A stretch of DNA of 36,805 bases from Nitrososphaerota archaeon (GTDB lineage Archaea > Thermoproteota > Nitrososphaeria > Nitrososphaerales > Gagatemarchaeaceae). Positions 5,849 through 24,897 of the stretch are shown piece by piece. The stretch's first letter is position 1. Each line of letters begins with the position of its first letter. Made by a program: the position numbers and the translations under genes. Under the pieces are notes generated by a model. The model made no database searches, was not told where the DNA came from, and saw only the letters and a list, made by a program, of their open reading frames with translations. The stretch lies in the NCBI GenBank assembly GCA_005877225.1, contig VBPK01000002.1, forward strand, positions 1 through 36,805, read 5' to 3'.

Positions 5849-7189
5849 CTATTCTATTTCTTTGTCAGAAATGTTCAGCGACTCGTCCAGAGCATCAATG
5901 CCCTGATCAATCTCGTTTCGACTTATTATCAATGGAGGCGCGATTACAAAATGACTCAACCAATTCAGGATGTATACGCCCCTAGACATCATCTCAGACG
6001 CCATCCTGTCAAGAACAGACGCCTTGCCAGACAGCTTGTCTTTGGGATTGGTGAAAGGTTCTTTTGTCTTCCTATTCTTTACTAATTCGACAGCCCAGAA
6101 GAGTCCTATCCCTCTGACGTCTCCCACAGATTCGTGTTTTTCTTTCAACTCGCTCAGTCTCTTCCCCGTGTAAGCACCTTTCTTTTTTGCTTCTGTGATC
6201 AGGTCCAGCCGCAAGTACTCCTTTATTGCGGCTACGGCAGGCGCCAACGTGAGCGGATGCGCTTCATACGTGTGTCCGTGCGCAAAGTAGTGGTCCTCAA
6301 AGTAATCGGCGATCTCTCTCGTTGTCGCTGTAAGCCCTAGAGGCGCGTATGCTCCGGTTATGCCCTTAGCAGTTGTGAGGATGTCGGGCTTGACCTTCCA
6401 GTGATTGACAGCGAACCATTCGCCCGTTCTGCCCCACCCAGACATTACTTCGTCGGCAATGAGTAGAACGTCGTTCTTGTCAGCAATCTCCCTCACCATA
6501 GGAAGGTATTCTTTTGGGGGAACCAAGACCCCGTTAGTTCCAACGACCGGCTCTAGCATTATGGCGGCAACATTGCCTTCGTTCTTTATCATGTAGTCGA
6601 TGTATTCAGCGCTTGCTATCCCCGGGTTAGGATGATCTGAGCCGAAGGGAGAACGATACGTGTCAGCGTCAGGTGCAAAGATCACTCCATCCATCTTGCC
6701 CACAGGTTCTGCGGTCCACCTGCGGAGGTCACCAGTCGCGGCGATCGAGCCCGCTGTGGAACCATGATACGAACGGTACCTCGAGATTATCTTGTGCTTT
6801 CCGGTGAATAGCCTCGCGATCTTGATCGCAGCTTCGTTGGCCTCAGTACCCGAAGTGGTGAAGAAGAATTTCTCCAGGCCCTCCGGCAGTAATTTCAGAA
6901 GTGACTTGCTTAATTCCGCTCGTACCGTGGTCGCGAATCCAGGAGAGATGTAGGGCAACTCCTTTGCCTGTTTACATATCGCATCGATTACCGCCTTGTT
7001 CTTGTGCCCCAGGTTTGAGCACATGAGCTGAGACGAAAAATCAAGGTACTTCTTCCCAGCGGCATCAAGGAAATAACAGCCCTCAGCATCGACAATGTGA
7101 AGAGGCTTCCATCCACGCTGATACCGCCACGTCCCGTACGTATGCCTGACAGTTAGATCCAATACCTCATCCGACTTCGGAACTAACAC
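5849..7189 (-). CDS. Class-III PLP-dependent aminotransferase (omega-amino acid / beta-alanine:pyruvate-type)
   Basis: 446-aa ORF with a GTG start. Motifs TTSGTEANEAAIK, ADEVMSGWGRTG and the PLP-lysine context DILTTAKG. Confidence 0.9.
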   Translation of the reverse strand: MLVPKSDEVLDLTVRHTYGTWRYQRGWKPLHIVDAEGCYFLDAAGKKYLDFSSQLMCSNLGHKNKAVIDAICKQAKELPYISPGFATTVRAELSKSLLKLLPEGLEKFFFTTSGTEANEAAIKIARLFTGKHKIISRYRSYHGSTAGSIAATGDLRRWTAEPVGKMDGVIFAPDADTYRSPFGSDHPNPGIASAEYIDYMIKNEGNVAAIMLEPVVGTNGVLVPPKEYLPMVREIADKNDVLLIADEVMSGWGRTGEWFAVNHWKVKPDILTTAKGITGAYAPLGLTATTREIADYFEDHYFAHGHTYEAHPLTLAPAVAAIKEYLRLDLITEAKKKGAYTGKRLSELKEKHESVGDVRGIGLFWAVELVKNRKTKEPFTNPKDKLSGKASVLDRMASEMMSRGVYILNWLSHFVIAPPLIISRNEIDQGIDALDESLNISDKEIE

Positions 7190-10408: not shown

Positions 10409-11236
10409 CTACATCGACCTGGTCAGTTCGCCATAAAGGTCCGGTCGTCTGTCCCTTAAGAAAGGAGCGCTTTTCCTCCTGTCATTGACTTCTTCAAGGT
10501 TCAGGTCAGCAACGAGCACGGCTTCCTCTTCTCCCGCTCGAGCTATTATCTCTCCCTTCGGGTCGACTACAAGGCTCTTCCCGAAATATCTCGCGGGCTG
10601 CTCTGGGAACTCAACTCCGCATCGATTAAGTCCGGCGACGAAAATCGTGTTAAATGACGCGTGAGCCCTTAACTCTAACTCCCACAGCTCAGGGTAGGTT
10701 CCGGTGCAGGTGGGAACGAAGACAATCTGGGCTCCCTTGAGTGCCTGAATCCTCGGACCTTCTTCGAAATGCCTGTCATAACAGATGACTAGCCCGAATT
10801 TGAGGCCGGGAATTTCGAAGACGGGGTATCCCATGTTACCGGGCTTGAAGTAGAACTTTTCCTGATATCCTACCAGTTGCGGGATGTGCGTCTTCCTATA
10901 CTTGCCGAGTATTCTCCCCTTTCTATCGATTACTGCGGCACTGTTGTAGAACGTTCCTGGAACTTCTGTATCGGCCTCGAAGATCGGCGCGATGACAGCC
11001 ACAGAATTCTCTCTGGCGACCTCGGCTAACGTATTAATCGTTGGTCCAGGGACCGACTCCGCAAGATCGAAGTACTTGGGCTCCTGAAAGACACAGAAAT
11101 ACCGCGTCGAGAAAAGTTCTTGAAGGCAAACGATCCCGGCTCCTTTCTTGGCGGCTTCGCCGATAAGGTGAACAGCCCTCTCAACGTTCTTCTCCTTCTT
11201 GGAAGCCGCGGACGCTTGGACAAGGCCAATCTTCAT
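10409..11236 (-). CDS. Carbon-nitrogen hydrolase (nitrilase superfamily); N-carbamoyl-amine amidase / beta-ureidopropionase-like
   Basis: Glu-Lys-Cys triad contexts are present: CLQELF, YRKTHIP and GLVICYD. Start trimmed from 11287 to ATG 11236 (MKIGLVQ). A TATA-like taaata lies about 30 nt upstream, inside the longer ORF. Confidence 0.85.
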   Translation of the reverse strand: MKIGLVQASAASKKEKNVERAVHLIGEAAKKGAGIVCLQELFSTRYFCVFQEPKYFDLAESVPGPTINTLAEVARENSVAVIAPIFEADTEVPGTFYNSAAVIDRKGRILGKYRKTHIPQLVGYQEKFYFKPGNMGYPVFEIPGLKFGLVICYDRHFEEGPRIQALKGAQIVFVPTCTGTYPELWELELRAHASFNTIFVAGLNRCGVEFPEQPARYFGKSLVVDPKGEIIARAGEEEAVLVADLNLEEVNDRRKSAPFLRDRRPDLYGELTRSM

Positions 11237-11345
11237 TGCGTTTGGCCGGTCGAGTCGTGTAAGGTATTTAGATATTGCCCGCTTCATGGTTTTGCAAGAG
11301 TCAAATATGCATAAATTTGGTCGCTACCCTTAACGCAAGGGGAAG

Positions 11346-13161: not shown

Positions 13162-14625
13162 CTACCTCGAAATGAGCCTAGCAGCCTCGTATGGTTCCGT
13201 GCGGGTCGCGACTCTCGCCGGCCACAGGGAGGCGAGAGTTCCCGTAAGCGCGGAGAGTGCAGTGGAGAGAGCCAGAAGCTCTGCGAGTTGTAGAGGAGGT
13301 GGGACGGAGAAAGGCAGGCCCACTGTCATGACTATCGAGGTCGAGAACCAGTTGAAGACGACCCAGGCCACCACGACGCCTAGGAGCCCCGATATCGTGG
13401 TTAGAGCAATCGTTTGAGCAATGATCAGCCTCGCTACGAACCGGCGAGGGGCTCCCACGGCTCTCATCAAACCTATCTCTCCCTTCCTCTCGTTTACCCC
13501 CAAGTAGGTCACGGCGCTGACCAAGAATAACGCGCCGAGCCAAACGAGGTTCCCCGAAATCGAAAAGGTGGAAAGAAGACCTGAGTACCTAATGCTAGCC
13601 GACTTGACAACGGAGTCGAGCGTGAAGGCATGAACATTGCCAATGGAGGACTGCACCCTTGTTGCGGCTGCGGTGGCACTCGTCCCGTCTTCAAGCTTCA
13701 CAAAGAAGGCGCTCGCCTGACCCGGCTGGAAGGAGAGGGGTGGTAGCCAGTAGTTGTAACCCTTCCCCGCGGACTGGGTAGCGCTGGCCGTCGTGTTCGT
13801 GGTCTGCCATGCCAACATGGCGTCCGCCGTGCTGAAAGAGATGAAAATCACATGGTCGATGAATGTCCCTGTCGCTGGTAACCTAGCCTGCACCGCGAGC
13901 TGGGTCCCATAGAACTTTCCCTGGTCCTGTAGAAGGTAGAAGGCGGGAACATTGAACCCAACCACCGCCCCGGTCCCGGTAAGAGGCTGGGTTACGTTCG
14001 CGGGAAGCCAGCTCTTGAGCATGAAATTGCTCTGAGGGTCGGCCGCAATCAAGTAGACCTTGTCTAGAGCGCCGCACCCGCCGGGACTGAATTCCGTGAG
14101 ATAAAGCTGCGGAGAAACCTCCTTGACCCCAGCCACATCGGAGAGAACGCTCACAAGACTACGGTTGATGTGCGTTGATTGCGGGGTGTAGACGAGAGTG
14201 TAGAATGGCTGTGGGGAGAGGCTGCTACCCTGCGGAAGCACTACCAGATCCGCCCCGAGCCTGTTCCTTACCTGATTTACGCTGTAGGCGGCGCCGCTCG
14301 TCAGGAGATTTGTCGCGAACAGCGCGCCAACAACGAGGGCTATTGCAGCTCCGGTTGCAAAAGTTCTCAAGAACCTTCCACTAGCCTCCCTACGTATGAG
14401 CGTCCTAATCCAGGGGGGGTTCTGCAGGTTCACGGGTGGCTTCCGCCACGATACCACAAGTACGAAGTACAATCCGATCAAGACTGCCAATCCTCCGATT
14501 CCTAGCTGGGCCTGCAGTAGAAATGGGTCCGTCGTCGAGAAGGCTGTCATTAACACAAGACCGGCGGCTCCGACCAGAAGACCCGCGGTGAGGGGCCCCC
14601 TCTTTAGGGTCATAAGGACGTTCAC
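13162..14625 (-). CDS. FtsX/MacB-type ABC transporter permease with extra N-terminal TM helices
   Basis: Large extracytoplasmic domain followed by the FtsX domain (NERKGEIGLMRAVGAPRRFVARLIIAQ) and three C-terminal TM helices. Confidence 0.8.
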   Translation of the reverse strand: MNVLMTLKRGPLTAGLLVGAAGLVLMTAFSTTDPFLLQAQLGIGGLAVLIGLYFVLVVSWRKPPVNLQNPPWIRTLIRREASGRFLRTFATGAAIALVVGALFATNLLTSGAAYSVNQVRNRLGADLVVLPQGSSLSPQPFYTLVYTPQSTHINRSLVSVLSDVAGVKEVSPQLYLTEFSPGGCGALDKVYLIAADPQSNFMLKSWLPANVTQPLTGTGAVVGFNVPAFYLLQDQGKFYGTQLAVQARLPATGTFIDHVIFISFSTADAMLAWQTTNTTASATQSAGKGYNYWLPPLSFQPGQASAFFVKLEDGTSATAAATRVQSSIGNVHAFTLDSVVKSASIRYSGLLSTFSISGNLVWLGALFLVSAVTYLGVNERKGEIGLMRAVGAPRRFVARLIIAQTIALTTISGLLGVVVAWVVFNWFSTSIVMTVGLPFSVPPPLQLAELLALSTALSALTGTLASLWPARVATRTEPYEAARLISR

Positions 14626-14770
14626 TTTCTTCAGGCTGCCTATTAAATGCTCTAGGAAGCTCGTGCACTCTACGCCCAGCGCTCAGATGCGCCCTAAGAA
14701 AGAATGAATGACCTTCTCATATCCCGCACGAAAGAACGAGGGTGCCTCGTGAGGTGCGAAAGCTTAGCGT

Positions 14771-15907
14771 CTACTCGCCCTTCCTGATTGCTTCGTACGG
14801 ATCAAGCCTTGCGGCCAGCAGGACAGGATAGGCTGCCCCCGCAGCACCCATTCCAACTCCTGTAAGGACCGAGATCACACCCAGGATATTCACTTCGAGG
14901 AGCGAAAGCGGCAATAGGGTTATGCCGAAGGCGCCTTCTACGTAGTTCCCAGCCAGGATGAGGACCACCTCCCCGAGTGCGAGGCCAAGCACACCTCCTA
15001 AGAGAGCCACCAGTGCCGCTTCCATGAAGACAGATCGAAAGACAAACCCCTTGGTGGCGCCGAGGGAGCGCAACAGTCCCAGGTGGCGCCTCCTTTCGTT
15101 CACTGTCATCGAAAAGAGCAATGAGATTAAGATTATCACGGACCCCCCCATAACTCCTGAGACTAAGAGCTCGTACGTCGCGATGCCGGCGGTTTCGACC
15201 TTCGTCTGATGAGCGAGCTCTGCTGGTTGTACAGTCGTGTACGGCGGGAGCGAGGCCCTCAGTCGCGGGTCTATATCCTGGAGTGTTGCGCCTCGTGCCA
15301 GCTTAATCATTAGCCCCGACACCTCGCCGCTGGTGAACCGAGTCTGCGTCGAGCGGTTCTCTGCCACTTCGTAGGCCGTCTTTATGGGAAAGAAGACCGT
15401 ATTGTCAGCGCTGCTGTTGGTCGGTTCCAATATACCAACCACCTTCAGAGCTACTCCGCTCCAGCTGACCCGGTCCCCGGGTTTAAGCCCGGTTGCTGAA
15501 CCAGCCAGCGCGGTGTCTCTGTCCAGGTTCGTGTTCGCGCTTGGTGAGAGCCACGGCTGAATCGTGAAGTCCGTCTGAGGATCAAATGCGACGAGTCGCA
15601 ACGGTGAAGTAAAGCCCTCTGACGCGTTCAACGTGGTCACGTATAGTTGCGCGGAGACGGCATCGACACCGCTAATCCTCCGTATCTCCAGCTGCGCGCT
15701 CCCATTAAGGTACTGATTTGAAGGCGGAACCACAAAGATAGGCGAGGCGACTTTCAAGTTCGTGTATGCCCCCGGGGTAGCCGTGGGCAAGACCATCAGA
15801 TCTGCCCCAAAGCGAGCCGCGCCCAGGCTGGTACTTCGGCTTACACCAATCGCCAGTGCAGTCGTCGAGAAGACAAGACTGACGACGACGGCTACGGCCA
15901 CCGTCAT
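14771..15907 (-). CDS. FtsX/MacB-type ABC transporter permease (N-terminus may extend upstream to about 15976)
   Basis: FtsX domain NERRRHLGLLRSLGATKGFVFRSVFMEA. The in-frame region upstream of ATG 15907 encodes the family-typical LLVLRNLRASPIRSA stub but contains no ATG/GTG/TTG. Confidence 0.8.
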   Translation of the reverse strand: MTVAVAVVVSLVFSTTALAIGVSRSTSLGAARFGADLMVLPTATPGAYTNLKVASPIFVVPPSNQYLNGSAQLEIRRISGVDAVSAQLYVTTLNASEGFTSPLRLVAFDPQTDFTIQPWLSPSANTNLDRDTALAGSATGLKPGDRVSWSGVALKVVGILEPTNSSADNTVFFPIKTAYEVAENRSTQTRFTSGEVSGLMIKLARGATLQDIDPRLRASLPPYTTVQPAELAHQTKVETAGIATYELLVSGVMGGSVIILISLLFSMTVNERRRHLGLLRSLGATKGFVFRSVFMEAALVALLGGVLGLALGEVVLILAGNYVEGAFGITLLPLSLLEVNILGVISVLTGVGMGAAGAAYPVLLAARLDPYEAIRKGE

Positions 15908-16155: not shown

Positions 16156-17214
16156 CTACTCGAAGTGGGGCAAGACCTTCTCTGCGAATAATCTTATGGC
16201 AGATAGGGCTTTCCCGTGACTCAGCCCGGGAAAGTGAATCCTGAAGATCACATGGTCCGTCTCGACATCCTTCTTGTATCTTTCTATCTGTGAGATGCAG
16301 GTATCGGCACCTCCTATGATGAACCGCTTCCTCAATAGCTCCAAGAACTGCTCGTAGCTGACGTTCTTCGGGTCAACCGGGTTGCCCTCCTCGTCCTGCA
16401 TGTGCCCCCAGAGGTAGTACTCTTTGTAGATGTGTAGAACCGGTTCCAGAGCATCTTTCCAGGCCTGTTCGTCTGTCCTGGCAACATAAGCTTCCCTGAA
16501 CAAGGGAACCTCACGGCGAGCTTGATCCCTCCCGAGTTTCTTCAACTCATCCTTGAACGCGAGCCTTCTCTGTTTGAGTACTAGCCGAGGCGTCACCGGG
16601 TCCATAAAGTAGGCGTCGCAGATTCGCGCTGCCCTTCGCACGGCAGCTTCGCTCTTCGCAGCGACCCATATGGGTGGCGAGGGCTTCTGCACCGGTTTTG
16701 GGCTCAGGGTTATCCCCGGGATGTCGTGGAACTTTCCATGAATCGCCACCTTGTCTTTCGTCCAGAGATCCCTTATCATCTTCACGTTTTCTTCGAGCAG
16801 CTCTCCGCGGTTGTGGAGTGAAACGCCGAAACCATTGAACTCCTCTGGCCTGTATCCTTGTCCTACACCCAATATCAAACGACCCTTCGACATGATGTCG
16901 ATGGTGGCCGCCATCTCCGCAACGTGCAGGGGATGGTAAAGCGGAAGTAACATTATTCCTGTACCCACTCTGATCTTCTTTGTTGCGGAGGCTAATCCGG
17001 CCACCGCAATCAAAGGCTGCGGAAAGTAACCAGCATCAGGGAGCAGGTGATGCTCGCAAACTAGGACGCTCTCGTAGCCAAACTTCTCAGCCAACAGTGT
17101 TTGTTCGAGTGTTTCCGCGAAGACAGCGGGCATGTGGTCAGAGGTCAAGCTCTGGTTGCAGAAAACGAGGCCAAACCTCAAACTGGGGGCTCTTTGGTCT
17201 ACCGTCGTGTGCAC
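16156..17214 (-). CDS. LLM-class (luciferase-like) flavin/F420-dependent oxidoreductase
   Basis: 352-aa ORF with a GTG start. Pattern FGLVF...AEKFGYESVLVCEHH...GRLILGVGQGY is typical of the bacterial-luciferase fold. Confidence 0.85.
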   Translation of the reverse strand: MHTTVDQRAPSLRFGLVFCNQSLTSDHMPAVFAETLEQTLLAEKFGYESVLVCEHHLLPDAGYFPQPLIAVAGLASATKKIRVGTGIMLLPLYHPLHVAEMAATIDIMSKGRLILGVGQGYRPEEFNGFGVSLHNRGELLEENVKMIRDLWTKDKVAIHGKFHDIPGITLSPKPVQKPSPPIWVAAKSEAAVRRAARICDAYFMDPVTPRLVLKQRRLAFKDELKKLGRDQARREVPLFREAYVARTDEQAWKDALEPVLHIYKEYYLWGHMQDEEGNPVDPKNVSYEQFLELLRKRFIIGGADTCISQIERYKKDVETDHVIFRIHFPGLSHGKALSAIRLFAEKVLPHFE

Positions 17215-18419: not shown

Positions 18420-20183
18420 TTGGTCGATTCTGAAGATATCGACATAGAAAACCTACAATTCTTCAATCGCAAGATTACTCGTCGCCAAGCCATTGCCAAA
18501 GCAACAGCCGCCGGAGCTGCCATTGGAGTTGCAATAGTAGCCGGGGCTGGTGGATACCTTGCGGGGACGTCAGTATCACCGGGCAAGTCGAGCACCACAA
18601 CCGTTACAACCACAGCGACCCAAGCCACGACTTCTGCGGCTGGCTTGGGTGCCACTCCTGCGGAGCGAGCCGTGAACGCCGTGAAGGCACTTAAGGCCGC
18701 AGGCAAGATTCCCGCCGGTGCAAAGATCAGGTTTCTCGAAGCCGCCTTCCGCGCGGGCAACATGACTCCGAAAGCGGGAGACGTGCGGACAGACCCCTAC
18801 ACAGGGAAGACAATACAGACCTCTATCAATATGCTGACGAAATGGGAAGACCTAACGGGGATACCTGTGGAGATCGATCTGCTCAATGACTTGCAGTTAT
18901 ACGACAAAGCTATCTCGGAGGCCACGACGAAGGCTGGAACATGGGACTTCCTGGGGCAGAGGATTGACTTCCTAGTCGACTTCATAAACGCAGGCGTTGC
19001 CCTAGATCTCACTGACTTCGAGACGAAATACCAGCCGGATATTAGAACTGGTAACTGCCAAGTGGTCCCTGTGTTTGCCCAAGGATACTACACCTCCGAT
19101 GGGAAGTACTGGGGATTCCCGGGTTGCGGGGACTGGTTCAGCTACTACAATCGGAGGGACTTGGTCACCAATCCCAAGTTGCAAAGCGCCTTCGAGACTC
19201 AATTCGGCTATCAGCTACCGGTGAATGGACCCGACACGTGGGATCAGGTCCTGGATATGGCCAGGTTCTTCGACGGCTACAAAGGTACGGAACAGACTCT
19301 CCCAGATGGGACGACCTCAACTCTCCGGGGAGCGTACTTCTTCAGGGATACGTGGTTCAGCAACATTGAATTCAGAATTCGCTTCCTCGAACTCGGAGGC
19401 CTTCTCTTCGATAGCAACAAGAACGTAACCCTGGACAACCAGATAACCAGGAAGGCGCTGCAGGACATGAAAGCCCTGGTGGCGTACCAGGCGAGAGACG
19501 CTTTCACATCTTCCTGGCCGACGATGTATCCAAACTATGCAAACAAGCAGGTCTTCCAGACCATCTCATGGGCTTCAGTCGCACAGTTCTCTGCAAGCGG
19601 TCCCGTAGGGGGACAGGGATTTGGCGTATACTTGACCCCGGGTTACAAGGTGGACAACAAGCTGATCCGAGTAACCGTGCTGTACGACCAGACATCCTAC
19701 ATCGTCGAGAAGTACGGGAAACTCACATCGGCAGTCCCCGACGTGCCGTACCTGTTTGGTCAGTGGCTGACCGACCCTGAGATCAGCACCCAAGAACTCG
19801 CGAATCCTGGCGCCATCTCGGACTACTTCAGGACGTGCCACGGAGTAGACGAAAGGATGATAGGGACCTTCTTTGCCGTGTGGCCACCCAATCCTGGTAT
19901 AGAACCCGGACGCCGAGGAGCGTCGGAAGCCTTCGATGTCCAGTTCCAAGCCTTGTGCGGCACCTGGCAGCTCGCCGGACTGCACGAGCTCCAGGACCTG
20001 TGGGGGACCCAGATGAATGCGTACTTCACGGATGTCCAAGACATAGATACAACGGTCAGGAAGATGCAGCAGGGCACGGATGGCGTCATGGACCGGCTCG
20101 GGCGAGATGCACAATATCAGCGATGGCAGTACGTAATGAAGACATTCCCGCCAGCACTCAAAACGCTTCACGGAATCAGTTGA
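18420..20183 (+). CDS. ABC transporter substrate-binding protein (family-1/CUT1-like) with Tat-like motif, membrane anchor and Thr-rich linker
   Basis: 587-aa ORF with a TTG start. N-terminus holds the twin-arginine motif TRRQAIAK, the hydrophobic stretch AAGAAIGVAIVAGAGGYLAG and the linker SSTTTVTTTATQATTSAAG. The remainder is a Trp/Tyr-rich periplasmic-binding-protein-like domain, directly upstream of two permease genes. Confidence 0.8.
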   Translation: MVDSEDIDIENLQFFNRKITRRQAIAKATAAGAAIGVAIVAGAGGYLAGTSVSPGKSSTTTVTTTATQATTSAAGLGATPAERAVNAVKALKAAGKIPAGAKIRFLEAAFRAGNMTPKAGDVRTDPYTGKTIQTSINMLTKWEDLTGIPVEIDLLNDLQLYDKAISEATTKAGTWDFLGQRIDFLVDFINAGVALDLTDFETKYQPDIRTGNCQVVPVFAQGYYTSDGKYWGFPGCGDWFSYYNRRDLVTNPKLQSAFETQFGYQLPVNGPDTWDQVLDMARFFDGYKGTEQTLPDGTTSTLRGAYFFRDTWFSNIEFRIRFLELGGLLFDSNKNVTLDNQITRKALQDMKALVAYQARDAFTSSWPTMYPNYANKQVFQTISWASVAQFSASGPVGGQGFGVYLTPGYKVDNKLIRVTVLYDQTSYIVEKYGKLTSAVPDVPYLFGQWLTDPEISTQELANPGAISDYFRTCHGVDERMIGTFFAVWPPNPGIEPGRRGASEAFDVQFQALCGTWQLAGLHELQDLWGTQMNAYFTDVQDIDTTVRKMQQGTDGVMDRLGRDAQYQRWQYVMKTFPPALKTLHGIS

Positions 20184-20263: not shown

Positions 20264-21169
20264 TTGGCTAACAAAGGTCGAACAAGCTGGCTGAGGCGGA
20301 AGTTCGGGTTTAACGTGTTGCTCGTTATGCCCCTTCAAGTGATCCTCAACTTCGTTCTCATCGTCCCATTTGCCCTGGCCATCTACTTGAGCTTGACCGA
20401 CTGGTCACCGATAACCGGACCGTGGTATGCTTCCCCAATAGTGGGAGCGCAGAACTACGTCTCCATACTGACGACGGAAAGGTTCCAGCAGGCGATCGTG
20501 AACACTCTCCTCATAGTGGGCGGCGCGGTCACCTTGGAGTTTGCTGTCGGATTGGTTCTTGCTCTCGCCTTCTTCTCCTGGGATTTTCGCGGCAAGGCGG
20601 TCTTCGCCTCAATCTTCCTCGTCCCTATGATGGTGATACCAGCAATCTCAGGTTTCACATTCCAGACGATTTTCTCTACTCAGGGGGCCATTAACGATGT
20701 GCTCAGCAGGGTCTCTGGAACGGTGGTGGCCGTCGATTGGTTGCACGTTCCGTGGAGCGCTTTATCGGCCGTCATCCTGGCCGACGCCTGGCAGTGGACA
20801 CCATTCATGTTCCTGCTGATGTACGCTGGCATGACGGCATTACCATCCGACCCGATCCGGGCGGCTAGGGTGATGGGCGCCTCCGAAAGGCAAATCTTTC
20901 TGAGGATAATGTTGCCAATGCTAAGACCCATCATAACGATAGCTCTGATAATCAGGAGCCTTGAGGCTTTCAAGATCTTCGATGTGCCATTTATCATGAC
21001 TCAGGGCGGCCCAGGGACCACGACCGAGACGATATCGATATTCCTCTATAAATTTGCGATTCAATTTGCAAGGGTCGCGTGGGCATCCGCCGGTGCGATA
21101 GTGATATTCATCGCCATTGTCATCGTGACTCTCTGGGCATCGAAGCCGCTGCTACCGAAGGCGGAGTGA
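20264..21169 (+). CDS. ABC importer permease, MalF/UgpA-like
   Basis: TTG start, 6 TM segments, EAA loop AARVMGASERQIFLRIMLPMLRP. Confidence 0.85.
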   Translation: MANKGRTSWLRRKFGFNVLLVMPLQVILNFVLIVPFALAIYLSLTDWSPITGPWYASPIVGAQNYVSILTTERFQQAIVNTLLIVGGAVTLEFAVGLVLALAFFSWDFRGKAVFASIFLVPMMVIPAISGFTFQTIFSTQGAINDVLSRVSGTVVAVDWLHVPWSALSAVILADAWQWTPFMFLLMYAGMTALPSDPIRAARVMGASERQIFLRIMLPMLRPIITIALIIRSLEAFKIFDVPFIMTQGGPGTTTETISIFLYKFAIQFARVAWASAGAIVIFIAIVIVTLWASKPLLPKAE

Positions 21170-22032
21170 GAAATTTGAAGGGTAAGAAGTTGATCTACTA
21201 CGCGACGATGCTTGTCGCGGCGCTCTTCGCACTGTTCCCCTTGTTCTGGCTTGTAACTAGTTCCCTGAAGAGCCCCTTCGAATGGTTCGCCCGACCGGTG
21301 GTGTGGATACCGGCACACCCGTCGCTCGACAGCTACGCGGCAATTTTTGGTTTGCCTGCTCCGAGCATAACGGTGGTGGGGGGAGTTCTCGTTCCTTCAT
21401 TCTACGCGTTCAGAAACAGCCTCCTCGCAGCGATCGGCACGACGGTGGCTGCGGTCGCCATAGGTTACATGGGGGCCTACAGCATATCTCGATACAAGAC
21501 TGGCGGCGCAGTGACCTACTTCTTCGTCTTGACCTCCCGCATGCTTCCCCCGGTGGCCGTAGTGATACCCCTGCTGGTTTTCTTTCAGACACTCTCGTTG
21601 GTTGACACCGTGGAAGGATTGGTCCTGATATACCTGGGTGTCAACGTCGCGTTTGTTATATGGATAGTGAGGGGGTTCATCGATGATGTTCCAAAAGAAG
21701 TTGAGGAGGCGGCGGCGTTGGATGGGGTCACCAAATGGTCCATTCCCTTTAGGATAATCCTGCCGTTAGTCAAGGGGGGCCTCGCTGCGTCGGCGCTCTT
21801 TGTCTTCATCTTGAGTTGGACTGAGTTCGGTATCGCCCTGATCTTAACTCAATACAATTCCACCACGATTCCTGTCCAGTTATTCAAGTACGAATTCGGT
21901 GGTGGACCCGCCCTCGGTCCTATGGCAGCACTCAGCACTTTGGCAGTGATACCAGTGATAATCTTGGGATACATTATCCAGAAACAACTGGTAAAAGGAC
22001 TCAGCATGGGTTCAATCAGAGGTAGACGCTGA
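21166..22032 (+). CDS. ABC importer permease, MalG/UgpE-like
   Basis: N-terminal LFPLFWLVTSSLK and EAA loop EEAAALDGVTKWSIPFRIILPLVKGG. GTG 21166 overlaps the upstream stop (GTGA). An alternative TTG at 21175 has GGAG 9 nt upstream. The longer ORF from 21079 is rejected. Confidence 0.85.
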   Translation: MRNLKGKKLIYYATMLVAALFALFPLFWLVTSSLKSPFEWFARPVVWIPAHPSLDSYAAIFGLPAPSITVVGGVLVPSFYAFRNSLLAAIGTTVAAVAIGYMGAYSISRYKTGGAVTYFFVLTSRMLPPVAVVIPLLVFFQTLSLVDTVEGLVLIYLGVNVAFVIWIVRGFIDDVPKEVEEAAALDGVTKWSIPFRIILPLVKGGLAASALFVFILSWTEFGIALILTQYNSTTIPVQLFKYEFGGGPALGPMAALSTLAVIPVIILGYIIQKQLVKGLSMGSIRGRR

Positions 22033-22080: not shown

Positions 22081-22614
22081 TTACCTCAGACTTCCACGGA
22101 GCCCTTCAATCGAAATTAGGTTGAGCTCGTGATTCGCCGTCCCCCCCTCCGCGAGCCTAATGACGAGTATCTTCTCCAAGAATCCAGGCGCCTTAACCGA
22201 GACAGTGTGCGAGGTAGGAGCCAACCCACCAATCTTAAACGCGCCATCGGGTGCCCGTTCCAATTCTTGTCCATCTACGCTAACGCTGGCAGCGGTGACC
22301 AGCCTATTTTTCTCGTCGAGGAGTCTGATGACAAGCGTTGCAGGAGAAGCTGGTTCGGAAAGTTCCGGGGGTATTGGTTCACCCTCCGCCGCGTAGAGGG
22401 CTACCGCGCTACCTGAGAAGACGGCGGTCCCTTCGATCGCTGTTATCCTTAGAAGCGTTCCTGCCTCGGGAGCATCAACCCGAATTGTCGTCTTTGCGGT
22501 TTCAACCTCGAACATGGCCTCCCCTTTCTGGAACCGCGCGCCTTCCTTCTTCATCCACCTCACGACCGTCCCGTTCCCGCCGATATCGTTCGGGACATGC
22601 ATGGTCTTAACCAA
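22081..22614 (-). CDS. Lipoyl/biotinyl-attachment-like domain fused to a PEGA/carboxypeptidase-regulatory-like beta-sandwich domain; function unknown
   Basis: The N-terminal ~80 aa match the E2 lipoyl-domain pattern (VPNDIGGNGTVVRWMKKEG....GEAMFEVETAKTTIRVDAPEAGTL). A Pro/Glu linker follows (GEPIPPELSEPASP). The C-terminal region VSVDGQEL...GLAPTSHTVSVKAPGF is PEGA-like. Start is TTG 22614 or ATG 22602. Confidence 0.7.
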   Translation of the reverse strand: MVKTMHVPNDIGGNGTVVRWMKKEGARFQKGEAMFEVETAKTTIRVDAPEAGTLLRITAIEGTAVFSGSAVALYAAEGEPIPPELSEPASPATLVIRLLDEKNRLVTAASVSVDGQELERAPDGAFKIGGLAPTSHTVSVKAPGFLEKILVIRLAEGGTANHELNLISIEGLRGSLR

Positions 22615-22667
22615 AGAAATCCCCGCTCACAATCACTCTAGTGGGACGAGTTCATGATTTGTAGAGT

Positions 22668-23771
22668 TCAGACGGGTCGCGTCGCGAGTGCTTGAAGGGT
22701 TTCCTTGTCGAAGAGATGTAGCTTGTTCTTGTCAAACTCCAGCCAGACTTTACCGCCAGGTTTCAGATCGGACCCTCCATGGATCAATGCCTTTACCAGG
22801 TTCTTGCCTAGATGGGCAGACAAGAGCGCCCTGGAACCCATTGGCTCCACGACGTACACGGTTGCCTCCATGCTTTCGTCACTCCGATTATCGAGGTGAA
22901 TCGAGATATTTTCTGGACGAATCCCGAGAGTCAGGTCAGATGGTCCCCCGTCACTGGTGGAGAGCGGCCGCGAATTAGTGACATCCAGGCTAAAGGACTC
23001 CTGAGCGAGTATCGTCCTACCATTCTTGACTTCACACCTGCATTCGATAAAATTCATTCTAGGCGAGCCCATAAAAGAAGCAACGAATTTGTCCTTTGGT
23101 CTCTCATAGATCGCGGACGGGGCGTCGACTTGCCTTATCATCCCTCCATTTAGGATCGCGATTCTCTCACCCATCGAAAAGGCCTCAAGCTGATCATGCG
23201 TTGTGTAGATGATCGTTTGACCGATCTCCCTCACCAGCCGTTTGAGCTCCGACCTCATGTTTGCCCTGATAAGGGCGTCGATGTTGGCCAGAGGTTGATC
23301 AAGCAGGTAAACCTTCGGCCTCCTTACTATTGCTCTTGCCAGCGCCAACCTTTGGAGTTCCCCGCCACTGTAGGTCCTTGGGTACCTGTCGAGGATATGG
23401 TCTATCTTCAATAGACGAGCGACTTCGTTGACCCGCTCAGTGATTTCGTTTTCCGGAACTTTTTTCTGACGAAGTGGAAATGCTATGTTTTTGAAACCAG
23501 TCTTATTTGGGTACAGTGCGAGATTTTCAAACACCATCGCCACGTCCCTATCCTTTGGCTCGAGATCGTTCACCAACTGTTCCCCGATATAGACCTCTCC
23601 TGAGTCGGGGACCTCCAGACCTGCAACGATCCTGAGTATTGTGGTAGCGCCCGCACCGGGAGGCCCAGCAAGGACGAAGAACTCCTTATCTCTCACCTCT
23701 AGGCTAATGTTATCGAGCACCGTCTTTGAGCCGTACCGCTTAGTGATATTCACGAGTCTTATGTTTGCCAA
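22668..23771 (-). CDS. ABC transporter ATP-binding protein, MalK/UgpC-like, with degenerate Walker A, Q-loop and Walker B (predicted non-hydrolytic)
   Basis: TTG start. Walker A GPPGAGAT lacks Lys. Q-loop is FENLALYP, signature YSGGELQR, Walker B LLDQP, and the H-loop TTHD is kept. C-terminal regulatory (TOBE-like) domain starts at FMGSPRMNF. Confidence 0.9.
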   Translation of the reverse strand: MANIRLVNITKRYGSKTVLDNISLEVRDKEFFVLAGPPGAGATTILRIVAGLEVPDSGEVYIGEQLVNDLEPKDRDVAMVFENLALYPNKTGFKNIAFPLRQKKVPENEITERVNEVARLLKIDHILDRYPRTYSGGELQRLALARAIVRRPKVYLLDQPLANIDALIRANMRSELKRLVREIGQTIIYTTHDQLEAFSMGERIAILNGGMIRQVDAPSAIYERPKDKFVASFMGSPRMNFIECRCEVKNGRTILAQESFSLDVTNSRPLSTSDGGPSDLTLGIRPENISIHLDNRSDESMEATVYVVEPMGSRALLSAHLGKNLVKALIHGGSDLKPGGKVWLEFDKNKLHLFDKETLQALATRPV

Positions 23772-23778
23772 AGTTGGG

Positions 23779-23785
23779 TCACCTC
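23779..23785 (-). promoter_or_regulatory. Shine-Dalgarno-like GAGGTGA 7 nt upstream of the TTG start at 23771
   Basis: Minus strand reads TGActGAGGTGAcccaactTTG, which suggests translational coupling of the two ATPase genes. Confidence 0.5.
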
Positions 23786-23787
23786 AG

Positions 23788-24897
23788 TCAAATTATCGCA
23801 GGCTCCTCGCCATTCTTACTGAATACGTGAGCATGATCTTCGTCAAATGTTACCGAGACCTTCTCGTTGACTTCAAAGCTGGACGTGGCGGGTACGGTGG
23901 CCTTCAGCATTAGGCCATCCACCTGGACGGAGACGATGTTCTCGTACCCGAGGGGTTCCGTCATAAAAACACTCCCACTCAGGTGCGACCCCCTGGGCTG
24001 AGTGGGGAGGTCGGAAAGACTAGTCACGTTCAGGTGCTCTGGCCGGATGCCTAAAACTAGTTCAGGGCTGTTTGCGAATTCAGTCAGCCTGTCCCGACCG
24101 CTCGTTAGATCCAGAGTAAATCTTTCATTTACAAGATACGCTCGTTCATCGCTGAGCTTCAGGCTGCAGTCGATGAAGTTCATCGACGGGCTACCGATGA
24201 AGTTTGCTACAAACTTGTTCTCGGGATGATTGTAGACAGTTTCAGGAGTGTCGTACTGTTGCAGTCTGCCGGCGCTCATGACGGCAATTCTGTCAGATAA
24301 TGTCAATGCCTCCAGCTGATCGTGAGTCACGAATATCGTTGTCTGCTCAACCTCCTTCTGAAGTCTCTTCAATTCTGTCCTCATTACATTTCTTGATTCA
24401 GCATCAAGGTTGCTCAGAGGTTCATCAAGGAGGAGGACCTTTGGCCGAATGATCAGGGTTCTTCCGATGGCGGTCTTTTGCATGTTTGTAAGAGAAAGCT
24501 TGCCAGCCTTCTCGTGAAGCACCTCCTTAATATCGAGAAATTCCGCCATTCGTTCGACCTCCCTCTTTATTTCCAGTTGTGGGGTGCCCCTGATCTTCAG
24601 CCCAAAGGCGAGATTGTCGAACGTGGTCATGTGCGTGAAGATGGCGTAGCTCTGAAAGACGAGACCTATCCCTCTGTCTTTTGAAGGTATGTCATTGATC
24701 CGCTGGTCGTCAAAGAAGATGTCGCCCGTGGTGGGTGTCTCGAGCCCCGAGAGACAGTTCAGCGTCGTTGTTTTCCCACATCCTGAAGGACCCAGGAGAC
24801 TGACAAATTCCTTGTCCTTGACATCTAGGTCTAGGTTCTGCACAGCAGTCAGTTTTCCGAATTGCTTGGTAAGACCCTTTATGATGACTTTCGTCAT
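23788..24897 (-). CDS. ABC transporter ATP-binding protein, MalK/UgpC-like, consensus catalytic motifs but degenerate ABC signature
   Basis: Walker A GPSGCGKT, Q-loop VFQSYAIF, Walker B LLLDEP and H-loop FVTHD are consensus. The signature position reads LSLTNMQK instead of LSGGQRQR. C-terminal domain starts at FIGSPSMNF. Confidence 0.9.
   Translation of the reverse strand: MTKVIIKGLTKQFGKLTAVQNLDLDVKDKEFVSLLGPSGCGKTTTLNCLSGLETPTTGDIFFDDQRINDIPSKDRGIGLVFQSYAIFTHMTTFDNLAFGLKIRGTPQLEIKREVERMAEFLDIKEVLHEKAGKLSLTNMQKTAIGRTLIIRPKVLLLDEPLSNLDAESRNVMRTELKRLQKEVEQTTIFVTHDQLEALTLSDRIAVMSAGRLQQYDTPETVYNHPENKFVANFIGSPSMNFIDCSLKLSDERAYLVNERFTLDLTSGRDRLTEFANSPELVLGIRPEHLNVTSLSDLPTQPRGSHLSGSVFMTEPLGYENIVSVQVDGLMLKATVPATSSFEVNEKVSVTFDEDHAHVFSKNGEEPAII

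What the first reader, a model, noticed from the sequence alone, without database searches (positions are those of the whole stretch)
22081..22614. Orphan lipoyl-like swinging-arm domain fused to a PEGA-like beta-sandwich at the end of the operon
**Seen in sequence.**
- The N-terminal ~80 residues reproduce the E2 lipoyl-domain pattern, including the W of ..VVRWMKKEG.. and the hairpin EVETAKTTIRVDAPEAGTL.
- The modifiable-Lys position is K41 (AAG, 22492..22494). The usual Asp before it is replaced by Ala, so the motif (TAK) sits between lipoyl DKA and biotinyl AMKM.
- A Pro/Glu-rich linker follows, then a ~90-aa region resembling PEGA / carboxypeptidase-regulatory domains (VSVDGQEL....SHTVSVKAPGF).
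- There is no E2 catalytic core, no carboxylase subunit, no signal peptide and no TM segment.

**Inference.** A stand-alone acyl or carboxyl carrier, or a non-modified protein-interaction module, co-transcribed with hydantoinase, carbamoylase and ABC ATPases has no obvious role in known hydantoin or pyrimidine pathways. It could mark an undescribed step such as CO2/carbamate handling, or a regulatory adaptor docking on the ATPase C-terminal domains.
Basis: partly seen in the sequence, partly recalled or inferred. Interest (0 to 1): 0.65.

Follow-up and report, generated by a model that had tools for sequence, protein, structure and literature searches.

The report
Lipoyl-domain accessory protein of archaeal ABC importer
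A small cytoplasmic protein, built from a genuine lipoyl-type "swinging-arm" domain and an Ig-like beta-sandwich, is a conserved but unannotated companion of an orphan sugar-type ABC importer in non-nitrifying soil Thaumarchaeota; it follows the transporter, not the hydantoin enzymes next to it.

Summary
ORF 22081..22614(-), 177 aa, has three parts:
- an E2-type lipoyl domain (Pfam 39.6 bits, cut-off 22.1; PDB profile E 4e-21), with K41 at the hairpin tip and aligned to the lipoyl-lysine;
- a conserved Pro-rich linker;
- a transthyretin-like (CarboxypepD_reg) beta-sandwich.

The AlphaFold model has pLDDT 90.

The gene is not an orphan. About 26 sequence clusters share the architecture. All come from metagenomes or Thaumarchaeota MAGs, and all show the same synteny: hydantoinase, then two MalK-type ATPases, then this gene, facing two permeases and an orphan binding protein. 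dN/dS is 0.14-0.33.

Tracing the orphan binding protein into diverged clusters gave the main new result. A lipoyl-domain gene is still present where hydantoinase and carbamoylase are absent. One version is a 113-aa lipoyl-only protein (SDK). The other, in Bathyarchaeia, is a lipoyl+thioredoxin-like fusion with K replaced by D. So the protein belongs with the transporter, not the hydantoin pathway.

My best reading, which is an inference, is an accessory or regulatory subunit of the importer's asymmetric ATPase dimer. Whether K41 is lipoylated remains open. CO2/carbamate handling has no support.

The parts
22081..22614 (-). LIP: 177-aa lipoyl-domain / beta-sandwich protein (whole ORF including stop)
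   Evidence: ORF list. Pfam. About 26 homologous clusters. dN/dS 0.14-0.33.
22387..22614 (-). N-terminal E2-type lipoyl domain (residues 1-76)
   Evidence: PF00364 at 39.6 bits, above the cut-off of 22.1. PDB profile E 4e-21 to PDH E2 lipoyl domains. Foldseek rmsd 1.4-2.3 A to 2dnc, 1y8n_B, 1qjo and 2l5t.
22492..22494 (-). AAG codon of K41, the position equivalent to the lipoyl-lysine
   Evidence: Invariant in all 17 aligned family members while both flanking residues vary. Aligns to the lipoyl-Lys of E2. Lies in the beta-turn between strands 33-38 and 43-47 of the model. Replaced by Asp in the Bathyarchaeia lipoyl-thioredoxin variant.
22342..22386 (-). Conserved Pro-rich linker (residues 77-91, EGEPIPPELSEPASP)
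   Evidence: G78, P82 and P88 are invariant; E79, P83 and P91 are nearly invariant. pLDDT dips to 78, with a short helix at 83-86.
22117..22341 (-). C-terminal transthyretin-like / CarboxypepD_reg beta-sandwich (residues 92-166)
   Evidence: PF13620 at 28.5 bits, below the cut-off of 32.3. Precomputed PF13620 hits in most homologues. Foldseek to the carboxypeptidase D/N transthyretin-like domain. The nearest sequence relatives are repeats of giant multi-repeat proteins.
22081..22116 (-). Short C-terminal tail (residues 167-177) plus stop; mostly net-basic in homologues, predicted helix 169-176
22612..22624 (-). TTG start codon (22612..22614) preceded by an SD-like GGGGA (22620..22624)
   Evidence: The TTG start is conserved in 9 of 10 lineages, with GGAG/GGGGA-like purines 3-8 nt upstream. 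This suggests an internal cistron of the ATPase transcript; that is an inference.
22668..23771 (-). ATP1: MalK/UgpC-type ABC ATPase with OB_MalK/TOBE regulatory domain and degenerate catalytic motifs (Walker A GPPGAGATT, Q-loop E, Walker B LLDQ); signature YSGGE intact
23788..24897 (-). ATP2: MalK-type ABC ATPase with consensus Walker A/B, Q-loop and H-loop but a degenerate signature (LSLTNMQ). Together with ATP1 it gives one consensus and one degenerate ATP site.
18420..20183 (+). Orphan substrate-binding protein candidate: twin-arginine motif, membrane anchor and Ser/Thr linker; very diverged MalE-like fold
   Evidence: No Pfam or NCBIfam hit. Sequence features. Weak PDB profile hits to sugar SBPs 5ysb (E 0.015) and 5iai (E 0.11). 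The Foldseek top hits are all family-1 SBPs, but the model is poor (pLDDT 49).
20264..21169 (+). PERM1, BPD_transp_1 permease
21079..22032 (+). PERM2, BPD_transp_1 permease, convergent with LIP. This is the mechanical ORF; homologues match from residue 31-59 onward, so the real start is probably near 21170.
24916..26373 (-). Dihydropyrimidinase / D-hydantoinase. A neighbour in Thaumarchaeota only, not part of the conserved core.
   Evidence: TIGR02033 at 514.9 bits, above the cut-off of 393. Absent from the held parts of L122, L123 and L124.
26412..27647 (-). M20 hydantoinase/carbamoylase-family amidase (allantoate amidohydrolase subfamily); a neighbour in Thaumarchaeota only

Best explanation
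**Shown**
- LIP is a real, expressed-looking cytoplasmic protein under purifying selection.
- It consists of a complete E2-type lipoyl domain, a conserved Pro-rich linker and a transthyretin-like beta-sandwich.
- In the loci examined, which are Thaumarchaeota MAG contigs or unbinned metagenome contigs, it is a fixed member of a gene cluster for an orphan MalEFGK-like (CUT1-type) ABC importer.
- That importer has a diverged binding protein, two permeases, and a heterodimer of MalK-type ATPases with one consensus and one degenerate ATP site.
- A lipoyl-domain gene stays with this transporter across three different architectures and with different catabolic neighbours.

**Inferred**
- LIP is an accessory or regulatory subunit acting on the cytoplasmic face of the transporter.
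- Most plausibly it docks on the ATPase dimer or its C-terminal OB/TOBE regulatory domains and modulates the transport cycle, much as EIIA-Glc does on MalK.
- The invariant K41 hairpin would be the functional tip.
- The beta-sandwich (or, in Bathyarchaeia, a thioredoxin-like module) would be a second, exchangeable contact or effector domain.

**Open**
- K41 is structurally competent for lipoylation. Whether it is modified is unknown; my estimate is about 50%.
For: **Domain identity**.

**Family and selection**
- About 26 clusters share the same two-domain architecture. A large score gap (153 to 84 bits) separates them from the next hits.
- dN/dS is 0.14-0.33 and both domains are constrained.

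**Synteny**
- The order HYD-ATP2-ATP1-LIP, convergent with PERM2-PERM1-SBP, holds in every locus long enough to show it. That covers at least 9 lineages with LIP identity from 45 to 97%.
- The association follows the transporter. L123/L124 (SBP 52% identical, ATPase pair 59-61%) have no hydantoinase or M20, but carry a 113-aa lipoyl-only gene next to the SBP.
- L122 (Bathyarchaeia, SBP 46-47%) has a lipoyl+Thioredoxin_3 protein convergent with the permeases, at the same position as LIP.

**Signs of common ancestry**
- Phe at position 28 is shared by all three architectures, where the E2-type domains have V/I. Position 74 is aromatic (Y or F), where the E2-type domains have I/L.

**Transporter features**
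- The ATPases carry OB_MalK and TOBE regulatory domains. Their asymmetric degeneracy is conserved in all orthologues.

**Expression signals**
- A TTG start with an SD-like motif is conserved. This is consistent with a low-abundance internal cistron of the ATPase transcript.

**Precedent**
- EIIA-Glc binds the NBD and the regulatory domain of different MalK monomers and traps MalFGK2 in an inactive state (PMC6906923).
- From my own knowledge, not tested here: EIIA-Glc and lipoyl domains both belong to the barrel-sandwich-hybrid fold class.
Against: - There is no direct evidence of a physical contact with the ATPases or permeases. No complex model could be computed here.
- In L123/L124 the lipoyl gene lies upstream of the SBP, not beside the ATPases. 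L122 shows no ATPase genes on the contig.
- An invariant Lys at the exact lipoylation position, a swinging-arm-like linker and a complete lipoyl-domain signature fit a cofactor carrier equally well.
- LIP has no PTS_EIIA_1 profile similarity, so the EIIA-Glc parallel is only an analogy.
- The SBP assignment rests on weak profile hits and a low-confidence model.
- Only about a dozen independent lineages are available.
Confidence: 0.4

Rival explanations
1. LIP is a true lipoylated swinging-arm carrier. K41 carries lipoate, and the arm, anchored by the beta-sandwich to an enzyme, shuttles an acyl or redox equivalent in the catabolism of the imported compound.
For: - The lipoyl-domain signature is complete, with K41 invariant at the hairpin tip.
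- The linker is Pro-rich like those of E2 enzymes.
- Mutagenesis of the B. stearothermophilus domain shows the D and A flanks are not needed for lipoylation; only the position of the Lys matters (PMC6270654).
- Non-ammonia-oxidising Thaumarchaeota are reported to carry PDH components and LipAB (PMC10773090).
- The 113-aa variant has a canonical SDK motif.
Against: - No E1, E2 core, E3 or glycine-cleavage gene lies in the window or in any conserved neighbourhood.
- The catabolic neighbours change between lineages while the lipoyl gene stays.
- All substitutions of the Asp before the Lys lowered E1 reductive acylation, and here that position is A/R/P/T/V.
- The Bathyarchaeia variant has Asp in place of the Lys.
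- Hydantoinase/carbamoylase chemistry needs no carrier; this is established pathway knowledge.
Confidence: 0.2
2. LIP is a redox-switch regulator, a special case of the best explanation. A dithiol/disulfide group reports the cell's redox or energy state to the importer. That group is lipoamide on K41 in Thaumarchaeota and the CxxC of the fused thioredoxin-like module in Bathyarchaeia.
For: - The one variant that lost the Lys has gained a thioredoxin-like module with a CGSC motif.
- The LIP family has essentially no cysteine of its own. Any thiol chemistry would therefore have to come from lipoate.
Against: - This rests on a single Bathyarchaeia contig.
- Lipoylation is untested.
- No redox partner is encoded in the cluster.
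- The fusion could be unrelated to function.
Confidence: 0.12
3. LIP is an assembly or scaffold factor for the neighbouring hydrolases (hydantoinase, carbamoylase), or a CO2/carbamate-handling carrier.
For: - It lies in the same strand block as the hydantoinase and M20 amidase in all Thaumarchaeota loci.
- A small single-domain beta protein of similar size, the Kuenenia hydrazine dehydrogenase small subunit 6hif_Y, is among the fold hits. Which LIP domain it matches is not known.
Against: - The lipoyl-domain gene persists where both hydrolases are absent.
- There are no carboxylase or carboxyltransferase genes.
- The domain is lipoyl-type, not biotinyl-type.
Confidence: 0.08
4. LIP is a functionless remnant of an E2 gene, or a mis-called ORF.
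For: It evolves 2-3 times faster than the adjacent ATPases. One source annotates a homologue as 'E2 component'.
Against: - dN/dS is 0.14-0.33 over both domains.
- Length, architecture, start codon and position are conserved across at least 9 lineages down to 45% identity.
- The fold prediction is confident.
Confidence: 0.03

Closest known systems
Lipoyl domains of 2-oxoacid dehydrogenase E2 subunits (e.g. human E2p L2 1y8n_B, E. coli 1qjo, Thermoplasma acidophilum 2l5t)
   Same: - Same fold.
- Same sequence signature: GT.v.W.KKeGe...ET.K....v.aP..G.l.
- Lys at the tip of the same beta-turn.
- Followed by a Pro-rich linker.
   Different: - No peripheral-subunit-binding domain and no acyltransferase core.
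- The Asp and Ala flanking the Lys are not conserved.
- No E1 or E3 nearby.
- Fused instead to a transthyretin-like sandwich and encoded inside an ABC importer cluster.
Single-domain biotin/lipoyl attachment proteins (B. subtilis BLAP 1z6h; the archaeal 'single domain' lipoyl proteins noted in PMC3904984)
   Same: A stand-alone carrier-type domain without a catalytic partner in the same polypeptide. The 113-aa variant in L123 is of this kind.
   Different: BLAP matches only weakly (E 0.013). LIP has a second folded domain and a fixed transporter context.
EIIA-Glc acting on MalK (inducer exclusion in MalFGK2)
   Same: A small cytoplasmic all-beta protein acting on a MalK-type ATPase dimer that carries C-terminal regulatory domains. 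This is the functional model I favour.
   Different: There is no sequence or profile similarity. Archaea of this kind have no PTS; that is from my own knowledge, not tested here. The contact itself is not shown.
Transthyretin-like / CarboxypepD_reg domains (carboxypeptidase D/N C-terminal domain; repeats of giant surface proteins)
   Same: The fold and the G.Y/F signature (SVKAPGF).
   Different: These domains are usually extracellular or in repeat arrays. Here there is a single copy in a protein without an export signal, and the Pfam score is just under the cut-off.
ABC heterodimers with one degenerate ATP site (TAP1/2, CFTR and TM287/288 type; named from my own knowledge)
   Same: ATP1/ATP2 combine one consensus site with one site lacking the Walker A Lys, the catalytic Glu and the signature.
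   Different: Those examples are exporters. Here the asymmetry is in a MalK-type importer ATPase pair, with an extra lipoyl-domain gene attached.

Membership tests
Lipoyl attachment domain (Pfam PF00364, E2 type) | Profile match above the curated cut-off | tested here: met
   39.6 bits against 22.1. PDB profile E 4e-21 to E2 lipoyl domains.
Lipoyl attachment domain (Pfam PF00364, E2 type) | [quoted passage not shown] | tested here: met
   AF2 model with pLDDT 90 and K41 between strands 33-38 and 43-47. rmsd 1.4-2.3 A to solved lipoyl domains. K41 aligns with the lipoyl-Lys.
Lipoyl attachment domain (Pfam PF00364, E2 type) | Conserved Asp-Lys-Ala motif | tested here: not met
   K-1 is A/R/P/T/V and K+1 is T/A/K/E/G. 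The literature says the flanks are not required for lipoylation but do matter for E1.
Lipoyl attachment domain (Pfam PF00364, E2 type) | Covalent lipoate on the Lys | not testable with these tools
   Needs mass spectrometry.
Lipoyl attachment domain (Pfam PF00364, E2 type) | Lipoate ligase, transferase or synthase in the same genome | not tested
   None in the 36.8-kb window. The literature reports LipAB in non-AOA Thaumarchaeota and absence in AOA.
2-oxoacid dehydrogenase E2 subunit | Peripheral-subunit-binding domain (PF02817) and acyltransferase core (PF00198) | tested here: not met
   Neither is found; the protein ends at residue 177. The JGI label 'E2 component' for P0006 is therefore an over-annotation.
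Biotin carboxyl carrier protein | A/V-M-K-M motif, best similarity to biotinyl domains, and a carboxylase partner | tested here: not met
   The motif is absent. Biotinyl carriers score 1e-5 or worse against 4e-21 for lipoyl domains. No carboxylase lies in the window.
CarboxypepD_reg (PF13620) | Profile match above the curated cut-off | tested here: inconclusive
   28.5 bits against 32.3 for the window protein. PF13620 is listed for most homologues.
CarboxypepD_reg (PF13620) | Transthyretin-like seven-stranded sandwich | tested here: met
   Foldseek to 1qmu, 3mn8, 2nsm and 5aq0, rmsd 2-4.6 A over 82-86 columns.
PEGA domain (PF08308) | Profile match above the cut-off | tested here: not met
   E 0.23, 11.8 bits against 20.8.
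Glycine cleavage H protein | GCV_H profile | tested here: not met
   No GCV_H hit. Only E 0.057 to 2ka7.
HlyD/RND membrane-fusion adaptors (barrel-sandwich-hybrid domain) | Membrane anchor or signal, coiled-coil hairpin, beta-barrel domain | tested here: not met
   No hydrophobic segment. HlyD_D23 scores only E 0.04, overlapping the lipoyl match. The model has no helical hairpin.
EIIA-Glc (PTS_EIIA_1) | PTS_EIIA_1 profile and phosphorylatable His | tested here: not met
   No hit at E up to 10. This family is used only as a functional analogy.

The most novel reading that the evidence does not exclude
The lipoyl domain has been co-opted as a regulatory subunit of an ABC importer. Its lipoyl-lysine (functionally replaced by a fused thioredoxin-like CxxC module in Bathyarchaeia) would act as a dithiol/disulfide switch. 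That switch would gate uptake through an asymmetric MalK-type ATPase dimer according to cellular redox or energy state. This would be a role for protein lipoylation outside the 2-oxoacid dehydrogenase and glycine-cleavage systems.
Probability: 0.12. Interest if true: 0.8.

Novelty: new variant of a known kind. Interest (0 to 1): 0.55.

Why it matters
Lipoyl domains are known almost only as swinging arms of 2-oxoacid dehydrogenases, acetoin dehydrogenase and the glycine cleavage system.

**What is new here**
- A conserved, unannotated family pairs a complete lipoyl domain with an Ig-like sandwich.
- It is tied to an ABC importer rather than to any lipoate-using enzyme.
- The transporter itself is unusual: its binding protein is unrecognisable by sequence, and its MalK-type ATPase pair has one dead site.

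**What each outcome would mean**
- If the protein proves to be a transporter subunit or regulator, it adds a new kind of accessory component to type I ABC importers.
- It would also be a new use for a cofactor-carrier fold.
- If K41 is lipoylated, it adds a new class of lipoylated protein in archaea.

**Practical consequence**
- Source annotations such as 'E2 component' for this family are wrong. The gene should not be counted as evidence for a 2-oxoacid dehydrogenase complex in thaumarchaeal MAGs.

Tried and rejected
- **Wider search for the architecture.** A profile search of 1.84 billion representatives found only the family representative and one fragment among the 150 best hits listed. 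All other hits were giant repeat proteins matching the C-domain, or multi-lipoyl E2s.
- **GTDB genomes.** Only two species representatives carry the gene or the SBP: Thaumarchaeota MAGs TA_13 and nzgw5. The nearest ATPase relatives outside the family, at 48% identity or less, are single MalK-type genes without a lipoyl gene.
- **C-domain against PDB sequences.** No hit.
- **SBP structure.** The AlphaFold2 model was poor (pLDDT 49). The Foldseek result, all MalE-like SBPs, is suggestive only.
- **Relatives of the Bathyarchaeia lipoyl-thioredoxin fusion in GTDB genomes.** None found.
- **L139.** The contig is cut 39 nt upstream of the SBP, so it cannot show whether a lipoyl gene sits there.
- **Literature search for lipoyl domain + ABC transporter + hydantoinase.** Nothing found.
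- **Membrane-fusion-protein reading.** Considered because of the weak BSH_RND/YhbJ/HlyD hits, and rejected: there is no anchor and no coiled coil.
- **Trans-acting lysine.** I considered that K41 might replace the missing Walker A Lys of ATP1. This is unsupported: the L123 ATP1-like protein keeps its Walker Lys and still has a lipoyl gene.
- **Complex prediction with the ATPases.** Not attempted. The tool takes single chains and returns no contacts.
Full report
**1. The observation**

The ORF at 22081..22614 on the minus strand is real: 177 aa with a TTG start.

*N-terminal domain*
- Pfam places residues 15-71 in Biotin_lipoyl (PF00364) at 39.6 bits, above the 22.1-bit cut-off.
- The NCBIfam hits are led by the lipoyl domains of E2 enzymes: AcoC at 1.6e-13 and SucB at 3.6e-11. 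Biotinyl carriers are far weaker.
- A profile of the family hits PDH E2 lipoyl domains in the PDB at E 4e-21. K41 aligns to the lipoyl-lysine. Biotinyl carriers reach only about 1e-5.

*C-terminal domain*
- Residues 97-166 match CarboxypepD_reg at 28.5 bits, just under the 32.3-bit cut-off.
- PEGA is not significant (E 0.23).

*Structure*
- An AlphaFold2 model built on 17 homologues has mean pLDDT 90.1. It shows two all-beta domains joined by a linker, with K41 in the turn between strands 33-38 and 43-47.
- Foldseek superposes the N-domain on solved lipoyl domains at rmsd 1.4-2.3 A.
- It superposes the C-domain on the transthyretin-like domain of carboxypeptidase D/N.

*Localisation*
- There is no hydrophobic segment, and the family has essentially no cysteine.

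**2. Not an orphan**

- Searches of 5.8 billion proteins found about 26 clusters with the same two-domain architecture, at 45-97% identity. A large score gap separates them from ordinary E2 fragments.
- A filter-free profile search of 1.84 billion representatives showed no further full-length match among the 150 best hits it lists.
- K41 is invariant in the family, while the residues on either side vary: A/R/P/T/V before it and T/A/K/E/G after it.
- dN/dS is 0.14-0.33 and both domains are constrained. The gene still evolves 2-3 times faster than the adjacent ATPases, whose dN/dS is 0.06-0.14.
- The only named genomes that carry it are two Thaumarchaeota MAGs, TA_13 and nzgw5.
- The window's other genes are organic-nitrogen catabolic enzymes, with none that is specific to ammonia oxidisers.

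**3. Context**

In every locus long enough to show it, the order is the same:
- (M20 amidase) - dihydropyrimidinase/hydantoinase - ATPase 2 - ATPase 1 - LIP,
- convergent with permease 2 - permease 1 - a roughly 590-aa membrane-anchored protein - (polysaccharide-deacetylase-family gene).

This holds.

*The enzymes.* The hydantoinase and carbamoylase-family assignments pass curated cut-offs.

*The ATPases.* Both are MalK/UgpC-type with OB_MalK and TOBE regulatory domains. They form a conserved asymmetric pair:
- ATPase 1 has lost the Walker A Lys (GPPGAGATT), the Q-loop Gln and the catalytic Glu (LLDQ), but keeps the signature (YSGGE).
- ATPase 2 has consensus Walker and Q/H motifs but a degenerate signature (LSLTNMQ).
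- The dimer therefore has one working and one dead ATP site.

*The 590-aa protein.*
- It has no Pfam, NCBIfam or significant PDB sequence match.
- It has a twin-arginine motif, a membrane anchor and a Ser/Thr linker typical of archaeal binding proteins.
- A profile gives weak hits to two sugar-binding proteins (5ysb at E 0.015, 5iai at E 0.11).
- Foldseek of a poor model (pLDDT 49) returns only MalE-like binding proteins.
- I read it as a very diverged family-1 binding protein, with moderate confidence.

**4. The key comparative result**

Searching with that orphan binding protein led to diverged versions of the cluster.

*L123/L124*
- The binding protein is 52% identical, and the permeases and the ATPase pair are present at 59-66%. 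The hydantoinase and carbamoylase are absent.
- A 113-aa lipoyl-only protein with a canonical Ser-Asp-Lys motif is encoded just upstream of the binding protein.

*L122 (Bathyarchaeia MAG contig)*
- The binding protein and permeases are followed, in the same convergent position as LIP, by a 309-aa protein. It has an N-terminal lipoyl domain (38 bits) fused to a two-unit thioredoxin-like module (Thioredoxin_3, 52.5 bits, CGSC motif).
- A gapless alignment places Asp where LIP has K41.

*Shared characters*
- All three kinds of transporter-linked lipoyl domain have Phe at position 28. E2-type domains have Val/Ile there.
- All three have an aromatic residue at position 74. E2-type domains have Ile/Leu there.
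- This hints at common descent.

*Exceptions*
- No locus that covers the relevant positions lacks a lipoyl-domain gene.
- Contigs L127, L128, L131, L135, L136, L138 and L139 end too early to tell.

The gene therefore belongs with the transporter, not with hydantoin chemistry.

**5. How it most likely works**

*Shown*
- A complete lipoyl-type domain with a Lys competent in position.
- A conserved Pro-rich linker and a second beta-sandwich domain.
- Cytoplasmic location.
- Obligatory linkage to this importer.

*From the literature*
- In the B. stearothermophilus domain the flanking Asp and Ala are not needed for lipoylation. Every substitution of the Asp lowered reductive acylation by E1 (PMC6270654).
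- LIP could therefore be lipoylated but is unlikely to serve a classical E1.
- ETAK also occurs in E2-type fragments (P0020), so the TAK motif by itself is not exotic.
- Ammonia-oxidising Thaumarchaeota lack lipoylation genes (PMC3904984). Non-oxidising ones are reported to have PDH components and LipAB (PMC10773090).
- The window itself has no ligase.

*Inferred*
- The gene follows the transporter through changes of catabolic neighbours, of its own second domain, and even of the Lys.
- The function common to all versions is therefore most economically a protein-protein role at the cytoplasmic face of the importer.
- The MalK-type regulatory domains and the asymmetric ATP sites are the obvious target.
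- EIIA-Glc on MalK is a worked precedent for a small beta protein locking such an ATPase dimer (PMC6906923).
- The conserved TTG start with an SD-like motif fits a low-abundance internal cistron of the ATPase transcript.
- I give this reading 0.4.

*Rivals*
- A true lipoylated carrier in catabolism: 0.2.
- A redox-switch version, in which lipoamide or the fused CxxC is the sensing group: 0.12.
- A scaffold or CO2/carbamate role for the hydrolases: 0.08.
- A functionless remnant: 0.03.

**6. Comparison with known families**

- LIP is a member of the lipoyl-domain family by profile and fold.
- It is not an E2, because it has no PSBD and no core.
- It is not a BCCP, an H protein or a membrane-fusion adaptor.
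- Its C-domain is a transthyretin-like/CarboxypepD_reg fold, with a borderline profile score and a met fold test. It is not demonstrably PEGA.
- I found no described case of a lipoyl-domain protein as a fixed companion of an ABC importer (and my own knowledge).
- I rate it a new variant of a known kind: a known fold in a new architecture and context, with function unresolved.

**7. Limits**

- No interaction, modification or expression data exist.
- The comparative sample is about a dozen lineages, nearly all metagenomic contigs.
- The thioredoxin fusion is seen once.
- The binding-protein assignment is weak.

Noticed in passing
window 22668..24897 (-): The two MalK-type ATPases form a conserved asymmetric pair. 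ATP1 lacks the Walker A Lys, the Q-loop Gln and the catalytic Glu but keeps the signature. ATP2 has consensus catalytic motifs but a degenerate signature (LSLTNMQ). This gives one consensus and one dead ATP site, which is unusual for a type I importer. The pattern is conserved in all orthologues; the L123 relative keeps the Walker Lys.
   Followed up: yes
window 18420..20183 (+): A 587-aa putative substrate-binding protein with a twin-arginine motif, a membrane anchor and a Ser/Thr linker. It has no Pfam, NCBIfam or significant PDB sequence match. About 20 homologous clusters exist, all labelled 'hypothetical'. Weak profile hits and (low-confidence) fold hits point to MalE-like family-1 binding proteins. 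Cys213, Cys236 and Cys473 are invariant.
   Followed up: partly
L122 10292..11221 (-) (Bathyarchaeia MAG GCA_046759885.1): A 309-aa fusion of a lipoyl-type domain, with Asp in place of the lipoyl-lysine, to a two-unit thioredoxin-like module carrying a CGSC motif. From my own knowledge it resembles archaeal protein disulfide oxidoreductases. It is encoded at the position LIP occupies next to the permeases. No relatives were found in GTDB genomes.
   Followed up: partly
window 22612..22624 (-) and orthologous loci: The LIP start codon is TTG in 9 of 10 lineages and ATG only in L039. It is preceded by an SD-like GGAG/GGGGA. This may indicate deliberately low translation.
   Followed up: partly
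window 27685..31307: A CobW-family GTPase is followed by a second pair of BPD_transp_1 permeases (28317..29243 and 29382..30218) with no binding protein or ATPase of their own. Next comes an MtaA/CmuA-family methyltransferase (30282..31307; NF004889 at 323 bits, above the cut-off of 244). The same arrangement occurs in L130 and L134. These permeases might share the ATPase pair.
   Followed up: no
window 31600..32900 (-): Two overlapping ORFs together look like one amidohydrolase split by a frameshift or an assembly error. ORF 31971..32900 (309 aa) has no Pfam hit. ORF 31600..32013 (137 aa) matches only the C-terminal part of Amidohydro_1/3.
   Followed up: no
window 5849..7189, 10409..11287, 16156..17214; L122, L125, L002: A class-III aminotransferase, a CN_hydrolase (N-carbamoylputrescine amidase-like) and an F420-type luciferase-like oxidoreductase recur near the transporter in the window and in the Bathyarchaeia contig L122. 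The aminotransferase and the oxidoreductase also recur in L125, and the oxidoreductase in L002. They may hint at the imported substrate, for example a ureide, a beta-amino compound or an N-heterocycle.
   Followed up: no
window 22081..22614 versus L130, L129, L126: Between near-identical strains, LIP is the most diverged gene of the cluster. It is 97% identical in protein sequence, against 98-100% for the binding protein, 97-100% for the permeases and 98-99% for the ATPases. Most of the changes lie in the lipoyl domain (R20S, K24R, A35P, M36V), with one more (D116E) and an altered C-terminal tail in the second half.
   Followed up: partly
window 13162..15907 (-): Two FtsX/MacB-type permease genes lie side by side with no ABC ATPase gene next to them.
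   Followed up: no
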